Assembly: GCA_965232545.1 (NCBI GenBank)
Contig: OZ246979.1
Span: forward strand, 5,734,077 to 5,798,076
Reading direction: 5' to 3'
From: Candidatus Poribacteria bacterium
GTDB lineage: Bacteria > Poribacteria > WGA-4E > WGA-3G
DNA length: 64,000 nucleotides
A model generated the notes under the pieces. It was not told where the DNA came from, did not search any database, and saw only the letters and a list, made by a program, of their open reading frames with translations. The position numbers and the translations under genes are program-made. This document shows positions 17,528-56,851 of this stretch, in pieces. The first letter of the stretch is position 1, and each line of letters opens with the position of its first letter.

Positions 17528-18331
17528 ATGTCAGAAAAATCTCGAATTGTTATGGTGGCAGGAAGTGCGAGTCATGGCGGTGGCGCGCATGAGCATCCCG
17601 CGGGGTGTGCCTATCTCGCCGATCAGTTGAACAAGGCTGTGGACAGCGTGGAAGTCGTGGTCTCGCAGGGATGGCCCGAAGATCCAGCGACTTTCACCGA
17701 TACAGATGCCATTATTGTTTACTCGGACGGTGGTGCTGGGCATCTTAGCATTCCACACCTTGAACAGATCTCTGGACTGGTGGAACAGGGTATCGGACTT
17801 GGGATGTTACACTATGCTGTGGAAGTGCCGAAGGGGGAACCCGGAGATCGCTTCTTGGAGTGGATCGGCGGCTACTTTGAGACCCACCTTTCGGTCAATC
17901 CGTATTGGACAGCAACGTTTACCGGATTTCCTGAACACCCCACAACACGCGGAATAGAGCCGTTTTCATTGGAAGACGAGTGGTATTACCACATGCGGTT
18001 TCGTGAAAATATGCAGGGTGTGACACCTGTGTTGAGTGCCATCGCACCTGCTTCGACACTTGAGAGACCCGACGGACCGCATAGCGGGAACCCGCATGTG
18101 CGCGCATCGGTAGCCAACGGTGAGCCGCAGCATCTCGGGTGGTGTGTAGAGCGTCCGGATGGAGGACGTGGATTCGGATTTACCGGCGGGCATCTCCATC
18201 GGAATTGGGCGGATGACGACCTCCGTAAATTCATTCTCAACGCGATCGCATGGACAGCAAAGGTAGAAATTCCTGAAGGGGGTATCTCTACGCCAACCCC
18301 GACTGAGGCAGAATTGGAGGCATATCTGTAG
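17528..18331 (+). CDS. ThuA-like (trehalose utilisation) domain protein, copy 1
   Basis: 267 aa ThuA/class-I glutamine amidotransferase-like fold. About 80% aa identity to the copy at 19749. A 40-bp promoter-region block is shared. Confidence 0.75.
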   Translation: MSEKSRIVMVAGSASHGGGAHEHPAGCAYLADQLNKAVDSVEVVVSQGWPEDPATFTDTDAIIVYSDGGAGHLSIPHLEQISGLVEQGIGLGMLHYAVEVPKGEPGDRFLEWIGGYFETHLSVNPYWTATFTGFPEHPTTRGIEPFSLEDEWYYHMRFRENMQGVTPVLSAIAPASTLERPDGPHSGNPHVRASVANGEPQHLGWCVERPDGGRGFGFTGGHLHRNWADDDLRKFILNAIAWTAKVEIPEGGISTPTPTEAELEAYL

Positions 18332-18560
18332 TTTTAGAGTCAATAACCCCAAGCTAAAGCATGGGGCTTGTGCGAAGCGTATGCCAAACGTTCACTCCAC
18401 AAGTTAAACTATTTTCTACAGTAAAATATCGCAGTATCTGGGCGTGGCAGCCTAAACAATGTTTCGGATACTCCCCTCGTCTGACTCACTCTAAGATATT
18501 GTGATCTGTAAGGGGCAATATACAACCCGTAAGGGAGATTACAAACTATGTTTGTTCCGG
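18332..18560 (+). ncRNA. Candidate omega-RNA region for IsrB (placement by analogy with IscB/IsrB systems)
   Basis: IscB/IsrB guide RNAs are encoded immediately upstream of, and overlapping, the ORF 5' end. The region opens with the IS-end hairpin CCCCAAGCTAAAGCATGGGG at 18347-18366. Boundaries not determinable by eye. Confidence 0.3.
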
Positions 18561-19600
18561 TGACGAGTCAAACAGGTCAGAAGTTGATGCCTACGCGTGC
18601 TAACAAGGCGGGTGTGCTGATTAAGAAAGGTTTCGCCACGCCCTATTGGTCTAATGGTATATTCTGTATCCGGCTTAACTATGCTATCGAAGACGCATAC
18701 ACACAAGATATAGTCGTAGGTGTAGACCCCGGTAGTAAGAAGGAAGGCTTTACCGTCAAATCAGAATCTCATACCTATTTGAATGTGCAAGCCGATGCTC
18801 ATAGGGGTGTCGGTAAGAAAGTTGAAAAACGTCGAGAGTTGCGTAGGAGTAGACGCTCTCGTAAATGTCCTAATCGCAAGAATAGAACCAACCGTCTTGC
18901 GAATAGAGAGCGTATCCCCGTAGGCACGCGTGCAAGGTGGGATTGGAAACTTCGTATACTTGATTGGCTTTCAAAGTTGTATCCACTCACACACGTATGT
19001 GTTGAAGATATTAAGGCACGAACAATAGAACGTGCTAAGAAATGGAATACCTCTTTTAGTCCACTTGAAGTCGGTAAGCAGTGGTTTTATACCGAAATCC
19101 GAAAGCAGTGGCAGTTGCTAACACTTCAAGGGTGGGAAACCAAAGAGATACGCGATAGCTTAGGACTCAAGAAGTCGTCAGACAAGATGTCAGAAACTTT
19201 TGACGCACATTGCGTAGATTCCTGGTGCTTGGCGTATCACACGGTTGGTGGTTCGGCTGTCCCTGATAACACGGACTTAATGTGTGTCTCACCGATACCG
19301 ATAAAGCGAAGAGAGTTGCATAGGCAACAGGAAGCGAAGGGGGGTAAACGCTCACGGGTGGGCGGCACTGTATTAGGTCAAGGCTTAGTCAAAAATACAT
19401 TGATTAAGCATGTCAAATACGGTTTAACACGACTTGCTGGCGTTAACGCAAAGGGTTTGTTTTCAATATACAGTATGGGAAACAAACGATTAACCACAGG
19501 GGCGAAGCGGTCTGATTTTAAAGTGCTAACACGCCTCAACTTTTACTACAGGAGTGGGCATTCCTCCCCAACCTAAAGGATGGGGTCTCCTGCCCGAAGA
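18335..19600 (+). mobile_element. IS200/IS605-family non-autonomous element encoding IsrB (no tnpA)
   Basis: Bounded by related subterminal hairpins: CCCCAAGCTAAAGCATGGGG at 18347-18366 and CCCCAACCTAAAGGATGGGG at 19566-19585, which show a compensatory G:C to C:G swap. Lies between two diverged ThuA paralogs. Confidence 0.55.
18548..19576 (+). CDS. isrB: IsrB (HNH-less IscB; OMEGA RNA-guided nickase)
   Basis: 342 aa. N-terminal PLMP-like GQKLMPTRANKAGVLIKKG...IRLNY, RuvC-I VGVDPGS, Arg-rich bridge helix RRELRRSRRSRKCPNRKNR, RuvC-II VCVEDIK, RuvC-III FDAHCVDSW. Only about 45 aa separate RuvC-II and RuvC-III, with no Cys/His HNH insert. Aligns block-for-block with the OgeuIscB N-terminal half. 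Confidence 0.7.
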   Translation: MFVPVTSQTGQKLMPTRANKAGVLIKKGFATPYWSNGIFCIRLNYAIEDAYTQDIVVGVDPGSKKEGFTVKSESHTYLNVQADAHRGVGKKVEKRRELRRSRRSRKCPNRKNRTNRLANRERIPVGTRARWDWKLRILDWLSKLYPLTHVCVEDIKARTIERAKKWNTSFSPLEVGKQWFYTEIRKQWQLLTLQGWETKEIRDSLGLKKSSDKMSETFDAHCVDSWCLAYHTVGGSAVPDNTDLMCVSPIPIKRRELHRQQEAKGGKRSRVGGTVLGQGLVKNTLIKHVKYGLTRLAGVNAKGLFSIYSMGNKRLTTGAKRSDFKVLTRLNFYYRSGHSSPT

Positions 19601-19748
19601 TTGATGATTTGGGTAATTCTGCACGGCTATTAAGTTTTCCTGTCTGGAATCCATTTTGAATACGAAACATTGCTGCCGAGATCCAGGGGACCTTAAGGCA
19701 TAGGGTGTGCTAAACTGATAGATATTCCCAACGGAGGATCCAAAAAAT

Positions 19749-54542: not shown

Positions 54543-54582
54543 ACCTGTCTCGTGAAAAGTGCTGAATATGCTTTTCGTAAAA

Positions 54583-54612
54583 GGCGCGGTTCCAACCGCG
54601 CCTTTTCAATTT
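54583..54612 (+). terminator. Intrinsic terminator after the TonB-dependent receptor gene
   Basis: GGCGCGGTT-cc-AACCGCGCC followed by TTTTCAATTT. The stem matches the REP-like family. Confidence 0.65.
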
Positions 54613-54699
54613 GTTTAAGCGTAGAAAATCGTGTATGCGAGTCGCTACTTCCGTAGCCGTGCTATGTCTATGGAAAGGGATCTTCATTCACCTTGAATC

Positions 54700-56135
54700 A
54701 GCTTAAATTTATCAATCTTCCGTCAAAACCCCATGCTTTAGCTTGGGGATGTAGACGGCGTATGAGTTTGTCGTTGAAAAAAGATTTGACATTTCGTGAA
54801 AAATGTCGTATAATTGATAGTATCAAGTTGGCAGACAGTTGAAGCGTAATCGCAAGGTTACGTGTCTGCCTACCCACTTCAACGGGGTTAAAGACTTGAT
54901 ACTTGATAGTCCATGAAAACCTATAAATACCCATTAGGGAAACAATCTAATACGATCCGCATTGGCAATCTGCTTGACGACATGTGGCAAGTTCATGAGT
55001 ATTTCCACAAGTGGCAAGACCAAAGATACAAAGACGGCTTGCCGTATGCGAACTATAACGCCATGTCTGCTCACGTGAAAACGTTGAAACGCACCACACA
55101 CCCACATTGGAAGGCGTTGCCAAGCCAAGCGATTCAAGCAGAACTCGAACGTATTGATAATGCGTATCAAAGGTTCTTTGATAAACTCGGTGGCAAGCCC
55201 CATATTAAAGCCCGCCATAAGTTTAAGTCTATCACACTTAAACAAACTGGATATAAACTGACGAATAATCGTATTACGCTCACATTTCGTCAATGGGCTA
55301 AGGGTAAGTGGAGGTTTGATAAAGTGCCATATACTTTCCATAAACACCGGCAATGGCATGGAACTATCAGTCGTATCACGATTAAGCGAGATAACTGCGG
55401 TGATTATTGGATTTGCATAACAACCACCTACACAGATTTCAAACTGCTGCCAGCAACAGGTAAAAGCGTTGGGGCAGACTTCGGTATGAAAGACGCGTAC
55501 TTGACACTTAGCACGGGTAAGAAGAAACAACACCCACAACCCTTGAAACAGTCCTTGAACAAACTTCGGTCTCTCAACAAAGACCTTTCTCGTAAAGTGA
55601 AAGGTTCTAACGGTTGGTGGCGGTGTGTGAGCCAAATCGCCCGTCTGTATCGGAAAATAAGCAACCAACGCAAAGATTTCCATTGGCAACTCGCCTCTGA
55701 ACTTTGTAAGAAGTTTGATACGATTGCGATTGAAACGCTGAACCTTGACGGTATGAAACGCTTGTGGGGACGTAAAGTCTCCGACCTTGCGTTCTATCAG
55801 TTTGTTGAGATATTGAAGTATAAGTGTCAAAAACATAAGCGTCTTTTGAAGCAAGTCGGTCCATGGACGGCGACAACGAAACCGTGTAGTGAGTGTGGTT
55901 TTCATAACGAAACGCTAACTTTGGACGATAGGCAGTGGACGTGTCCTGACTGTGGTTCACACCACGATAGAGACATCAACGCTGCGATAAACATATTGCG
56001 GGCAGGGATAGCCATCACTTGACGATATGCCTTGTCTCTGACAAGGGAAATGCCCGCAGGTGGAGCGACAGTTAGACGGTGGACTCTCCGAGAAAACCGC
56101 AGTTGCGACGAAGCCGAAGCCCCTGCCTTTAGGTA
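54700..56135 (+). mobile_element. IS200/IS605-family tnpB-only element (IS1341-like)
   Basis: Left-end hairpin CCCCATGCTTTAGCTTGGGG at 54729-54748, which is the reverse complement of the IsrB-element end hairpin. Consensus promoter TTGACA-17-TATAAT at 54785-54813. Right-end hairpin CCTTGTC-tct-GACAAGG at 56030-56046. Confidence 0.7.
54913..56022 (+). CDS. tnpB: TnpB (RNA-guided RuvC-like endonuclease, IS200/IS605 OrfB)
   Basis: RuvC-I GADFGM, RuvC-II IAIETLNLDGMKR, zinc finger CSECG..CPDCG, RuvC-III HDRDINAAINI. Confidence 0.85.
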   Translation: MKTYKYPLGKQSNTIRIGNLLDDMWQVHEYFHKWQDQRYKDGLPYANYNAMSAHVKTLKRTTHPHWKALPSQAIQAELERIDNAYQRFFDKLGGKPHIKARHKFKSITLKQTGYKLTNNRITLTFRQWAKGKWRFDKVPYTFHKHRQWHGTISRITIKRDNCGDYWICITTTYTDFKLLPATGKSVGADFGMKDAYLTLSTGKKKQHPQPLKQSLNKLRSLNKDLSRKVKGSNGWWRCVSQIARLYRKISNQRKDFHWQLASELCKKFDTIAIETLNLDGMKRLWGRKVSDLAFYQFVEILKYKCQKHKRLLKQVGPWTATTKPCSECGFHNETLTLDDRQWTCPDCGSHHDRDINAAINILRAGIAIT

Positions 56136-56851
56136 GTGGGTGCTATCACTGTGATCATACCAACGTCTGCCGTTGTGAATTCCGCGGAGTCGCTGATACG
56201 GATCATAATCGCGAATAATCTGGAAGAACCGATCCCAAATGGATAGTAGACGGGTTCGTTTTTGTTGTAAGAGTAATCTTTTGGAAAAATGCACATCCGC
56301 ATCTTGTTAAAGGGCGCATCAGCAAGGGTTTCGAGCGTCTGTTTTTCCATCGCTTCCCCTTGATGTGCCCAAGCATAACACGTCGTTCCGAATTGATGGT
56401 AGGGTGTATCGTCGGCATAGCGGAGATAGAACTCTTTATAGACGCGGACAGGTCCGTGATTTCCATCGGACGGTGCAACGCACGTAAACTGCCCTGTCTT
56501 ACCGTTAAGTTCAGCGGTGTTACTTTTTGTGATATACGTCCATTCGCCGACTGCGTCGGGCATAAACCGGATTTTGTAAACACCGTCTCCGTCGTAGAAA
56601 CCCTGCGGCTCGAACGTCTGTCCTTCGTTTGTATCACGGTGTTTAAATTCTGCTGTTAATTCAACCTCAGTGAACGGATTTCCTGTGTCCGGTCCACTCA
56701 GAGTTACTTCATATACTCCCCAGCGTTCAACCATATTCACCTCCGATTTTGGTGCATTTTGCGGGTTTCCAAAACTTGTTGTTAAAAAGTGTGTATTTAC
56801 GAGCGAAAACGCAACCGCAAAAACCACTATTGTCAAAATTTTTCTTATCAT
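56129..56851 (-). pseudogene. DUF5060/DUF4038-type glycoside-hydrolase-like gene, frameshifted and 3'-truncated by the tnpB element
   Basis: N-terminal DUF5060 signature [11 protein letters not shown]...[15 protein letters not shown]. After ...[15 protein letters not shown] the homologous sequence continues in another frame ([28 protein letters not shown] 55902-56294) and then runs into the IS right end. Confidence 0.5.

What the first reader, a model, noticed from the sequence alone, without database searches (positions are those of the whole stretch)
18347..19585. IS-end hairpins with a compensatory base-pair swap, shared in inverted form with the unrelated tnpB element
CCCCAAGC-taaa-GCATGGGG at 18347-18366 and CCCCAACC-taaa-GGATGGGG at 19566-19585 flank isrB. 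The second hairpin overlaps the isrB stop codon. Position 7 pairs with position 14 in both copies, as G:C in the first and C:G in the second, so the pair is preserved while both bases changed. The reverse complement, CCCCATGCTTTAGCTTGGGG, marks the left end of the tnpB element at 54729-54748. This suggests both elements are mobilised by the same trans-acting Y1 transposase, presumably encoded elsewhere in the genome.
Basis: seen in the sequence. Interest (0 to 1): 0.55.

Follow-up and report, generated by a model that had tools for sequence, protein, structure and literature searches.

The report
Transposon-end hairpins of isrB and tnpB elements

Summary
The three 20-nt hairpins lie exactly where reported, and none is expected by chance. 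A fourth, diverged hairpin (56120-56140) closes the tnpB element.

All four are subterminal imperfect palindromes of two non-autonomous IS608-like elements:
- isrB element: 18339-19603, top strand is the window's minus strand.
- tnpB element: 54713-56149, top strand is the plus strand.

The borders rest on multi-copy alignments, an empty site for the isrB insertion (…TTTTAGA|ATGATTT…), and a homology break next to TTAT for tnpB.

Every end follows the IS608 rule. The four bases 5' of the hairpin foot match the cleavage tetranucleotide, and these pairs co-vary across copies (TTAC/AAAG, TTAG/AAAC, TTAT/AAAA, TCAA/GAAT, TCAG/GAAC).

The 7:14 swap is real covariation: GC 77, CG 50, TA 3 and GT 1, against 8 unpaired, in 139 instances.

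Hairpin 1 is also the first stem-loop of the IsrB ωRNA (HEARO). The inverted orientation follows from isrB lying on the bottom strand.

I found no Y1 TnpA in the window or in 68 Poribacteria loci, so mobilisation in trans by one shared transposase remains an inference.

Published work (IS608; Meers et al. 2023) already describes this arrangement. It is a new member of a known kind, of low to moderate interest.

The parts
18339..19603 (-). Complete non-autonomous isrB element (1265 bp). The transposon top strand is the window's minus strand.
   Evidence: Seven full-length copies lose similarity exactly at GTCAATAA on one side and at …GATTG|ATGA on the other. The empty site in L131 reads …GTAGTTTTAGA|ATGATTTGGG….
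18319..18338 (+). Predicted guide segment of the IsrB ωRNA. It is flank sequence and overlaps the stop codon of the upstream ThuA gene. Its length is assumed.
   Evidence: This is an inference. The ωRNA scaffold starts at the right-end border. IscB/IsrB guides lie 5' of the scaffold, outside the transposon.
18339..18342 (-). Right-end cleavage tetranucleotide, TGAC on the top strand.
   Evidence: It sits at the border defined. Its last base, C, pairs with the G of the guide tetranucleotide CAAG, following the IS608 rule.
18347..18366 (-). Transcribed on the plus strand, it is also the first stem-loop of the ωRNA.
   Evidence: Searches give the sequence. The HEARO consensus holds CCCCcgcccUaAAggAgGGGG at the same model positions. 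The ssDNA fold has z = -3.2.
18367..18370 (-). Right-end guide tetranucleotide, CAAG on the top strand.
   Evidence: These are the four bases 5' of the hairpin foot on the top strand, the position of the IS608 guide.
18339..18547 (+). IsrB ωRNA scaffold, a diverged HEARO-type RNA.
   Evidence: The Rfam HEARO hit spans 18339-18523 at 19.9 bits, E = 0.18, below the gathering score. The region is conserved in 14 Poribacteria copies, and the consensus fold starts with this hairpin and the CUUGUG/CACAAG stem.
18548..19576 (+). isrB gene (342 aa).
   Evidence: Pfam RRXRR, E = 1e-28. The best solved relative is DtIsrB, 8DMB, E = 4.6e-30, with the RuvC motifs aligned.
19566..19585 (-). Its loop supplies the isrB stop codon.
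19555..19596 (-). Extended left-end structure. An outer stem (19555-19560 with 19591-19596) encloses an internal loop and the hairpin. The guide tetranucleotide GAGA (top strand) is at 19586-19589.
   Evidence: Across 18 distinct copies, 99.6% of cells are paired and 3 of 6 outer-stem pairs change on both sides. No shuffle out of 500 reached the observed score.
19604..19607 (-). Target and transposon-adjacent motif: TCAT on the top strand, which reads ATGA 3' of the IsrB target.
   Evidence: It is retained in the empty site. All seven aligned full-length isrB copies end in GATGA, and 31 of 32 scorable distinct class B left ends read TCAT. It matches the NTGA motif reported for DtIsrB.
54709..54712 (+). 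Target and transposon-adjacent motif TTAT of the tnpB element.
   Evidence: The copy alignment places it at the border. An uninterrupted homologue reads …CACGGCTTAT|TGTGGTCATACC… at the matching position. TTAT pairs with the guide AAAA.
54713..56149 (+). Complete non-autonomous tnpB element (1437 bp).
   Evidence: Similarity to L009 and L044 starts after TTAT/TTAG and ends after TGCTATCAC. Homology to L133 resumes exactly at 56150.
54720..54758 (+).
   Evidence: The ssDNA fold has z = -3.2 and the same layout as the IS608 left end. In 13 distinct copies the outer stem co-varies, with 0 of 500 shuffles reaching the observed score.
54786..54814 (+). Promoter-like site for tnpB, inside the element.
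   Evidence: TTGACA-17-TATAAT, matching 12 of 12 consensus positions. It is conserved in L009 and L044.
54913..56022 (+). tnpB gene (369 aa).
   Evidence: Pfam OrfB_IS605 and Cas12f1-like TNB. It matches ISDra2 TnpB structures at E = 1.4e-43.
56116..56149 (+). Right end of the tnpB element: guide GAAG (56116-56119), hairpin CCCCTGCCTTTAGGTAGTGGG (56120-56140, with a bulged T), and tail TGCTATCAC ending in the cleavage tetranucleotide TCAC.
   Evidence: The hairpin co-varies among copies (TG…TA, AA…TT, TA…TA). TCAC/GAAG parallels TCAA/GAAT in IS608.
56150..56165 (+). Predicted guide segment of the TnpB ωRNA. It is flank sequence, and its length is assumed.
   Evidence: This is an inference from the right-end border and from the published position of TnpB guides 3' of the right end.

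Best explanation
The hairpins are the subterminal imperfect palindromes of two non-autonomous IS200/IS605-family (IS608-like) insertion sequences.

Proposed mechanism:
1. On the single-stranded top strand, each end folds into the hairpin. This is the structure a Y1 HUH transposase (TnpA) recognises.
2. The four bases 5' of the hairpin foot pair with a cleavage tetranucleotide. This sets the cut 3' of TCAT (isrB element) or TTAT (tnpB element) at the left end, and 3' of TGAC or TCAC at the right end.
3. Excision is scarless, and re-insertion occurs 3' of the same tetranucleotide.
4. That tetranucleotide also serves as the motif read by the element's RNA-guided nuclease. Its guide RNA runs across the right end into the flank.

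Two consequences follow. IsrB carries its guide at the RNA's 5' end, so isrB lies on the bottom strand. Its right-end hairpin is therefore transcribed as the first stem-loop of the ωRNA, and the hairpins appear inverted relative to the tnpB element. The G:C to C:G swap is ordinary covariation that keeps the stem.

Shown here: element borders, hairpins, guide/cleavage complementarity, covariation, and one empty site.

Inferred: TnpA binding and cleavage, a TnpA encoded elsewhere in the genome, and the same TnpA acting on both elements.
For: (1) All four hairpins of this type in the 64-kb window sit at the ends of the two elements. Within each element both hairpins lie on the same strand.

(2) Borders:
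- Alignment of seven isrB copies and three tnpB copies.
- The empty site in L131 joins window 18338 directly to 19604, with no duplication.
- L133 homology starts at 56150, directly after a TTAT.

(3) IS608 read from H. pylori pUM157:
- Left end: TTAC|…AAAG-CCCCTAGCTTTTAGCTATGGGG-ATAC, with an outer stem.
- Right end: GAAT-CCCCTAGCTTTAGCTATGGGG-AGTATGTCAA|.
- These have the same layout as the window elements and nearly the same hairpin.
- One Poribacteria right-end class is GAAT-hairpin-AGTATGTCAA, identical in both flanks to IS608.

(4) The IS608 rule is taken from the literature. The cleavage/guide pairs seen are:
- Window: TTAT/AAAA, TCAC/GAAG, TCAT/GAGA, TGAC/CAAG.
- Other loci: TTAC/AAAG, TTAG/AAAC, TCAA/GAAT, TCAG/GAAC.
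- The fourth position is always Watson-Crick, apart from a few copies.

(5) Covariation in the hairpin and in the left-end outer stem.

(6) Poribacteria distribution:
- 84 of 86 instances fall in four IS-end classes.
- 53 lie next to isrB or tnpB homologues.
- Short gene-less pairs also occur, resembling palindrome-associated transposable elements (PATEs).

(7) The same left-end class serves both isrB elements and a second tnpB family.

(8) The identical hairpin flanks a Pfam Y1_Tnp gene in an Ignavibacteriaceae contig.

(9) The predicted IsrB motif ATGA fits the published NTGA.

(10) Published precedent: one TnpA mobilises related tnpB and iscB elements, the HEARO/ωRNA is bounded by the right end, and the motif co-varies with the DNA guide.
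Against: - No Y1 transposase gene was found in the window or in the 68 Poribacteria 8-kb loci (tblastn; IS608-type HMM).
- The exact isrB protein occupies the same genomic site in all six places examined, out of 20 contigs that carry it. This particular copy therefore shows no sign of recent spread.
- The tnpB right-end hairpin differs from the other three, and whether one TnpA accepts both forms is untested.
- Short-DNA fold energies are modest: z = -1.3 for the isrB left end and -0.3 for the tnpB right end.
- All hairpin positions except 7 and 14 were fixed by the search pattern, so their invariance across loci carries no information.
- In taxa other than Poribacteria, the hairpin was not found next to detectable isrB or tnpB homologues.
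Confidence: 0.87

Rival explanations
1. The ends are genuine IS200/IS605 ends but are now fossils. On this reading the lineage has no matching TnpA, and the elements persist only by vertical descent, possibly helped by RNA-guided homing by IsrB or TnpB.
For: No Y1_Tnp gene was found in the window or in about 0.5 Mb around 86 Poribacteria hairpins. The exact isrB protein occupies one conserved site in all six places examined, out of 20 contigs that carry it. The ωRNA 5' stem of the window copy is weakened relative to other copies.
Against: The site is polymorphic, since an empty allele exists. Ends, hairpins and guide/cleavage complementarity are intact in many diverged copies. One genome (OZ244616.1) carries many copies, including gene-less derivatives. 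Only small parts of each genome were sampled, and tnpA is known to be rare near iscB and tnpB genes.
Confidence: 0.2
2. The hairpin is conserved only as an RNA element, the first stem-loop of the IsrB ωRNA, and has nothing to do with a transposase.
For: It matches the first hairpin of the Rfam HEARO consensus. It heads the conserved ωRNA fold.
Against: The same hairpin occurs at the isrB 3' end and at the tnpB left end, neither of which is part of an ωRNA. It also occurs in IS608 and beside a Y1_Tnp gene. The neighbouring tetranucleotides co-vary with the cleavage sites, which an RNA-only role does not predict.
Confidence: 0.04
3. The hairpins are REP-like repeats serviced by a domesticated RAYT-type Y1 transposase, not insertion-sequence ends.
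For: In L041 and L010 the nearby Y1_Tnp proteins look RAYT-like. In L041 the hairpin is part of a roughly 128-bp direct repeat. In non-Poribacteria taxa no isrB or tnpB homologue lies nearby.
Against: In the window and in Poribacteria, the hairpins occur as left/right pairs bounding discrete elements with defined borders, a target motif and an empty site.
Confidence: 0.04
4. The hairpins are transcription terminators or chance palindromes.
For: The second hairpin sits at the end of the isrB reading frame.
Against: No T-tract follows any of them, and the terminator scan found none at these positions. Zero matches are expected by chance.
Confidence: 0.01

Closest known systems
IS608 of Helicobacter pylori (IS200/IS605 family, IS605 group)
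   Same: The hairpin is nearly the same: CCCC-4 nt-TTTA-4/5 nt-GGGG, with an irregular T just before the G run. The guide tetranucleotide lies 5' of the hairpin foot. The left-end cut lies upstream of the hairpin, about 20 nt in the pUM157 copy (19 nt as published) and 16-18 nt here. The right-end cut lies 10 nt downstream in IS608 and 8-9 nt here. The left end has an outer stem. Insertion occurs 3' of a tetranucleotide without duplication.
   Different: IS608 encodes its own TnpA, and neither window element does. The window hairpin carries a T·T mismatch (top strand) where IS608 has an extra-helical T; only the tnpB right end has a bulged T. The target tetranucleotides are TCAT and TTAT instead of TTAC.
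ISGst families of Geobacillus stearothermophilus (Meers et al. 2023)
   Same: Related non-autonomous tnpB and iscB elements share end sequences. One TnpA mobilises them in trans. The adjacent motif co-varies with the DNA guide. The ωRNA is bounded by the right end. Gene-less derivatives carry ωRNAs.
   Different: The host phylum differs (sponge-associated Candidatus Poribacteria). The nuclease here is IsrB, which lacks the HNH domain, not IscB. No cognate TnpA has been identified, and nothing has been tested experimentally.
HEARO RNA (Rfam RF02033) / IsrB ωRNA of Desulfovirgula thermocuniculi
   Same: The RNA lies directly upstream of isrB and starts at GUCA. Its first stem-loop is CCCC…CUAAAG…GGGG, followed by the CUUG…CAAG stem. 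The predicted motif ATGA fits NTGA.
   Different: The scaffold is about 200 nt, against about 260-300 nt. The Rfam score is 19.9 bits against a gathering score of 83. I did not verify the pseudoknots.
REP elements with RAYT transposases
   Same: Both involve short GC-clamped hairpins recognised by Y1 HUH enzymes. The identical hairpin flanks a RAYT-like gene in L041.
   Different: In the window the hairpins bound discrete mobile elements that carry nuclease genes, and no RAYT gene is present.

Membership tests
IS200/IS605 (IS608-like), non-autonomous | Subterminal imperfect palindromes at both ends, on the same strand, with no terminal inverted repeats. | tested here: met
   There are two hairpins per element in the same orientation, 8-18 nt inside the mapped borders.
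IS200/IS605 (IS608-like), non-autonomous | The cleavage tetranucleotide is complementary to the guide tetranucleotide 5' of the hairpin foot. | tested here: met
   The window pairs are TTAT/AAAA, TCAC/GAAG, TCAT/GAGA and TGAC/CAAG. Co-varying pairs occur in other copies.
IS200/IS605 (IS608-like), non-autonomous | Insertion 3' of a specific tetranucleotide, with no target duplication and a scarless empty site. | tested here: met
   The L131 empty site reads …TTTTAGA|ATGATTT… for the isrB element. For tnpB only the right flank could be compared, and it reads TTAT|TGTGG in L133.
IS200/IS605 (IS608-like), non-autonomous | A Y1 HUH transposase (TnpA, Pfam PF01797) that acts on the ends, here necessarily in trans. 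| tested here: inconclusive
   None was found in the window or in 68 Poribacteria loci. The whole source genome could not be searched.
IS200/IS605 (IS608-like), non-autonomous | TnpA binds the hairpins and cleaves the top strand at the predicted sites. | not testable with these tools
   This needs biochemistry or an excision assay.
IS200/IS605 (IS608-like), non-autonomous | The cargo is a tnpB, iscB or isrB RNA-guided nuclease gene. | tested here: met
   Pfam RRXRR, and OrfB_IS605 with TNB. The PDB relatives are 8DMB and 8BF8/8EXA.
HEARO / IsrB ωRNA | The Rfam RF02033 gathering score is reached. | tested here: not met
   19.9 bits against 83, E = 0.18.
HEARO / IsrB ωRNA | The RNA lies directly upstream of isrB on the same strand, starts at the transposon right end, and has the conserved 5' stem-loops. 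| tested here: met
.
HEARO / IsrB ωRNA | Adaptor and nexus pseudoknots. | not tested
   I saw a candidate CUCCCC/GGGG pairing by eye but did not analyse it.
REP/RAYT | Isolated extragenic hairpin repeats together with a RAYT gene. | tested here: not met
   The window holds only four copies, all at element ends, and no Y1 gene.
Intrinsic terminator | A GC-rich stem followed by a T-tract. | tested here: not met
   The scan reported no terminator-like site at any of the hairpins.

The most novel reading that the evidence does not exclude
The 20-nt hairpin may be a nearly invariant Y1-transposase recognition module shared across bacterial and archaeal phyla, which the IsrB ωRNA has taken over as its first stem-loop. 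If so, the transposase (on DNA) and the nuclease (on RNA) read the same sequence and might regulate each other. In Poribacteria these elements and their gene-less derivatives may spread with a very rare transposase, a non-canonical one, or none at all.
Probability: 0.08. Interest if true: 0.55.

Novelty: new member of a known kind. Interest (0 to 1): 0.25.

Why it matters
For annotation, the result gives exact borders and end structures for both elements. It also gives their predicted target motifs (ATGA for IsrB, TTAT for TnpB) and the predicted guide segments. These details would be needed to test either nuclease as a genome-editing tool or to trace IS activity in sponge symbionts.

It also documents a large IS608-like family in Candidatus Poribacteria, including gene-less derivatives that carry only an ωRNA.

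Conceptually it adds nothing new. Shared ends between tnpB and iscB/isrB elements, mobilisation in trans, guide/cleavage covariation and the overlap of the ωRNA with the right end are all published.

Tried and rejected
- An Rfam scan of the whole window at gathering thresholds found nothing. Only a permissive scan showed the weak HEARO hit.
- I searched for a Y1 transposase with tblastn using IS608 TnpA and with an HMM built from 120 IS608-type TnpA sequences, against all six-frame ORFs of the window and loci. The only hits were in Ignavibacteriaceae (L041) and Marinimicrobia (L010). None came from Poribacteria.
- A metagenome scan with the tnpB left-end pattern returned one contig, again tnpB only.
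- Exact-protein look-ups for the TonB-dependent receptor, the DUF5060 fragment and TnpB found no records. A full empty site for the tnpB element was therefore not obtained. I could compare only the right junction, through a homologue.
- H. pylori plasmid hits to my recalled IS608 right-end sequence were initially solo remnants. A complete IS608 copy came from a protein search.
- I considered whether the roughly 111 bp present in the window but absent from L131, downstream of the isrB element, was another mobile element. I rejected this. Part of it resembles the upstream region of the paralogous ThuA gene, so a deletion in L131 is more likely.
- The terminator reading was rejected.
Full report
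**Observation**

The three sequences are exactly as reported. They are CCCCAAGCTAAAGCATGGGG at 18347-18366, CCCCAACCTAAAGGATGGGG at 19566-19585, and the reverse complement of the first at 54729-54748. With up to three mismatches allowed, the 64-kb window holds only these three matches, and no shuffle produced any.

The stem pairs positions 1-5 with 16-20 and 7-8 with 13-14. Positions 6 and 15 form an A·A mismatch, and the loop is TAAA. Pair 7:14 is G:C in the first copy and C:G in the second. The isrB stop codon (19574-19576) lies in the loop of the second hairpin.

A looser scan finds one more hairpin of the same design: CCCCTGCCTTTAGGTAGTGGG at 56120-56140, downstream of tnpB.

**The genes**

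- ORF 18548-19576 is an IsrB. It matches Pfam RRXRR at 1e-28. Its best solved relative is the Desulfovirgula IsrB, 8DMB, at 4.6e-30, with the RuvC motifs aligned.
- ORF 54913-56022 is a TnpB. It matches OrfB_IS605 and the TNB domain and the ISDra2 TnpB structures at about 1e-43.
- isrB sits between two tandem ThuA paralogues.

**Related copies**

Of these, 68 come from Candidatus Poribacteria MAGs. The rest come from Methanosarcina, Methanothrix, Marinimicrobia, Bacteroidales, Microcoleus and others. The exact IsrB protein of the window occurs in sponge-metagenome contigs and in a Poribacteria assembly.

Across the 139 hairpin instances, pair 7:14 reads GC 77, CG 50, TA 3, GT 1, and is unpaired in 8. 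Many copies share descent, so this is not a count of independent events. However, GC and CG both occur within a single flank class.

In Poribacteria the flanks fall into four classes:
- Class A, gtcaataa-[hairpin]-cttgtgcgaagcg: the 5' side of isrB.
- Class B, gcgggcattcct-[hairpin]-tctcctgcccgaagattgatga: the 3' end of isrB. It is also the start of a second tnpB family that is 51-55% identical to the window's TnpB.
- Class C, tgacatact-[hairpin]-attcttag: downstream of a third tnpB family.
- Class D, cgtctacat-[hairpin]-ttttgacgg…gataa: upstream of tnpB, as in the window.

Of the 86 Poribacteria instances, 84 belong to these classes. Of all 86, 53 lie within 450 bp of an isrB or tnpB homologue, and 8 form short gene-less pairs.

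**Borders**

Seven full-length isrB copies lose similarity immediately left of GTCAATAA (window 18339) and immediately right of …GAAGATTGATGA (19607).

A contig that carries the same two ThuA genes without isrB (L131) reads …GCATATCTGTAGTTTTAGA|ATGATTTGGGTAATTCTGC…. This joins window 18338 directly to 19604. The element is therefore 18339-19603 (1265 bp). It inserted without duplication, and ATGA belongs to the target.

For tnpB, the copies in L009 and L044 align from just after TTAT/TTAG (window 54713) to TGCTATCAC (56149). A homologue of the disrupted DUF5060 gene aligns to the window starting exactly at 56150. At that point it reads …CACGGCTTAT|TGTGGTCATACC…. The left flank of the tnpB element has no counterpart there, so a complete empty site is lacking. 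The region has evidently also suffered a deletion.

**Comparison with IS608**

I fetched a complete IS608 from H. pylori plasmid pUM157. Its TnpA is 99% identical to the query.
- Left end: TTAC|…AAAG-CCCCTAGCTTTTAGCTATGGGG-ATAC, enclosed by an outer stem.
- Right end: GAAT-CCCCTAGCTTTAGCTATGGGG-AGTATGTCAA|.

The published mechanism is as follows. TnpA binds the hairpins on the top strand. The cleavage tetranucleotides (TTAC at the left end, TCAA at the right) are recognised by pairing with the four bases 5' of each hairpin foot (AAAG and GAAT).

Read on their top strands, the window elements have the same layout.

| Element | End | Sequence |
|---|---|---|
| tnpB | left | TTAT\|CAATCTT-CCGTC-AAAA-[hairpin]-ATGTA-GACGG |
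| tnpB | right | GAAG-[hairpin]-TGCTA-TCAC\| |
| isrB | left | TCAT\|CAATCTT-CGGGCA-GGAGA-[hairpin]-AGGAA-TGCCCA |
| isrB | right | CAAG-[hairpin]-TTAT-TGAC\| |

In all six ends, IS608 included, the last base of the cleavage site is Watson-Crick complementary to the base next to the hairpin foot.

Across other copies this pair co-varies:

| End type | Cleavage / guide | Where seen |
|---|---|---|
| Left | TTAC / AAAG | L008, L022 |
| Left | TTAG / AAAC | L009, L024 |
| Left | TTAT / AAAA or AAGA | 16 distinct sequences |
| Right | TCAA / GAAT | class C copies |
| Right | TCAG / GAAC | L002, L030, L082 |

A few copies are exceptions.

Class C right ends are GAAT-[hairpin]-AGTATGTCAA. Both flanks are identical to the IS608 right end.

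The left-end outer stem co-varies strongly:
- Class B: 99.6% of cells paired, and three of six pairs change on both sides.
- Class D: 95.5% of cells paired.
- In both classes, no shuffle out of 500 reached the observed score, and slid controls give below 46% paired.

All inner-hairpin positions except 7 and 14 were fixed by the search pattern, so they say nothing about conservation.

**Dual role and orientation**

A permissive Rfam scan places HEARO (RF02033) at 18339-18523. The score is only 19.9 bits, against a gathering score of 83. However, the model consensus begins GUCAacuaCCCCcgcccUaAAggAgGGGGCuUg…cAaG. The hairpin is therefore the conserved first stem-loop of this RNA family.

Fourteen Poribacteria copies give a consensus fold that starts with this hairpin and the CUUGUG/CACAAG stem.

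[quoted passage not shown] It also states that DtIsrB reads an NTGA motif. The ATGA retained in the empty site fits that motif.

The IsrB guide is at the 5' end of its RNA and must read into the flank beyond the right end. So isrB lies on the bottom strand, whereas tnpB, whose guide is at the 3' end, lies on the top strand. This explains why the tnpB copy of the hairpin is inverted. The isrB left end overlaps the last codons of the gene, and the invariant loop supplies the stop codon.

**What is not shown**

No Y1 transposase gene is present in the window or in the Poribacteria loci. The only Y1_Tnp genes near this hairpin were found in an Ignavibacteriaceae contig and a Marinimicrobia contig. 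In the first, the identical hairpin flanks the gene on both sides. Both proteins look RAYT-like.

Only a small part of each genome was sampled, and tnpA is known to be rare near iscB and tnpB genes.

Mobilisation in trans by one TnpA thus rests on three things: identical hairpins, a left-end class shared between isrB and tnpB elements, and published precedent. It is not directly demonstrated. The filled/empty polymorphism shows that the isrB element was gained or lost within the population. All six places examined for the exact isrB protein, out of 20 contigs that carry it, show the same site.

**Rivals**

- An RNA-only role does not explain the copies outside ωRNAs, or the covariation between guide and cleavage site.
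- A REP/RAYT reading may hold in other phyla. It does not fit the paired, bordered elements seen here.
- None of the hairpins is followed by a T-tract.

**Verdict**

The observation and its main interpretation are right. The arrangement matches what is already described for IS608 and for the Geobacillus ISGst families. It is a new member of a known kind, useful for annotation, and of low to moderate interest.

Noticed in passing
window 54786-54912 (+): A perfect sigma-70 consensus promoter (TTGACA-17-TATAAT, 54786-54814) is followed by a roughly 100-nt tnpB leader. The leader is conserved in L009, L044 and L122. It shows compensatory changes in three helices and a candidate pseudoknot (AGUUGAAG/CUUCAAC, AGUUUCAG/CUGAAAC, UGUUUAG/CUAAACA). 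It has no Rfam match, and its function is unknown.
   Followed up: partly
L017, L050, L054, L057, L102 (class A + B pairs); L031, L058, L066, L085, L105 (class C + D pairs): These are short gene-less elements. Some are 290-400 bp and carry the isrB-type ωRNA scaffold between a right and a left end. Others are about 250 bp and have tnpB-type ends. They resemble the published palindrome-associated transposable elements, and are numerous in Poribacteria genome OZ244616.1.
   Followed up: partly
L100 741-760 (Poribacteria OZ253447.1): A single hybrid hairpin, GTCAATAA-CCCCAAGCTAAAGGATGGGG-TCTCCTGCC…GATGA, joins the right-end left arm to the left-end right arm, with a G/G mismatch at 7:14. It looks like a solo remnant left by deletion between the two hairpins, or a fixed left/right-end junction.
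   Followed up: no
L051, L084 (left ends); L017, L054, L057 (right ends), all from OZ244616.1: In one subfamily, AAAC or AAC is inserted directly beside the hairpin foot, at the guide-tetranucleotide position, at both a left end and several right ends. This breaks the usual guide/cleavage complementarity. I have no explanation for it.
   Followed up: no
window 56129-56851 (-) and 54543-54712: The DUF5060 gene to the right of the tnpB element is a pseudogene. It has a roughly 266-bp internal deletion relative to L133, and its 3' part is missing. The left flank of the element is unrelated to the homologue. This suggests an IS-associated deletion or recombination between two copies.
   Followed up: partly
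L041 2440-3260 (Ignavibacteriaceae): A RAYT-like Y1_Tnp gene (2517-2960) is flanked by the identical 20-nt hairpin, embedded in a roughly 128-bp direct repeat with three copies. Multi-copy occurrences of the identical hairpin at contig ends in Methanosarcina and Methanothrix MAGs suggest related repeats in archaea. In Methanothrix the left-end-like flank gives TTAA/AATT complementarity.
   Followed up: partly
window 19624-19734 versus L131: About 111 bp upstream of the second ThuA gene is present in all isrB-filled contigs but absent from the empty-site contig. Part of it resembles the upstream region of the first ThuA gene, so a deletion in L131 is more likely than another insertion.
   Followed up: partly
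L050 2847-3566 and L067 1-343: ORFs that look like MerR-type serine recombinases (by eye from the sequence, no family search run) occur in Poribacteria. The L050 ORF lies beside a tnpB homologue, an IS607-like arrangement. A second, hairpin-independent tnpB mobilisation system therefore probably coexists in these genomes.
   Followed up: no
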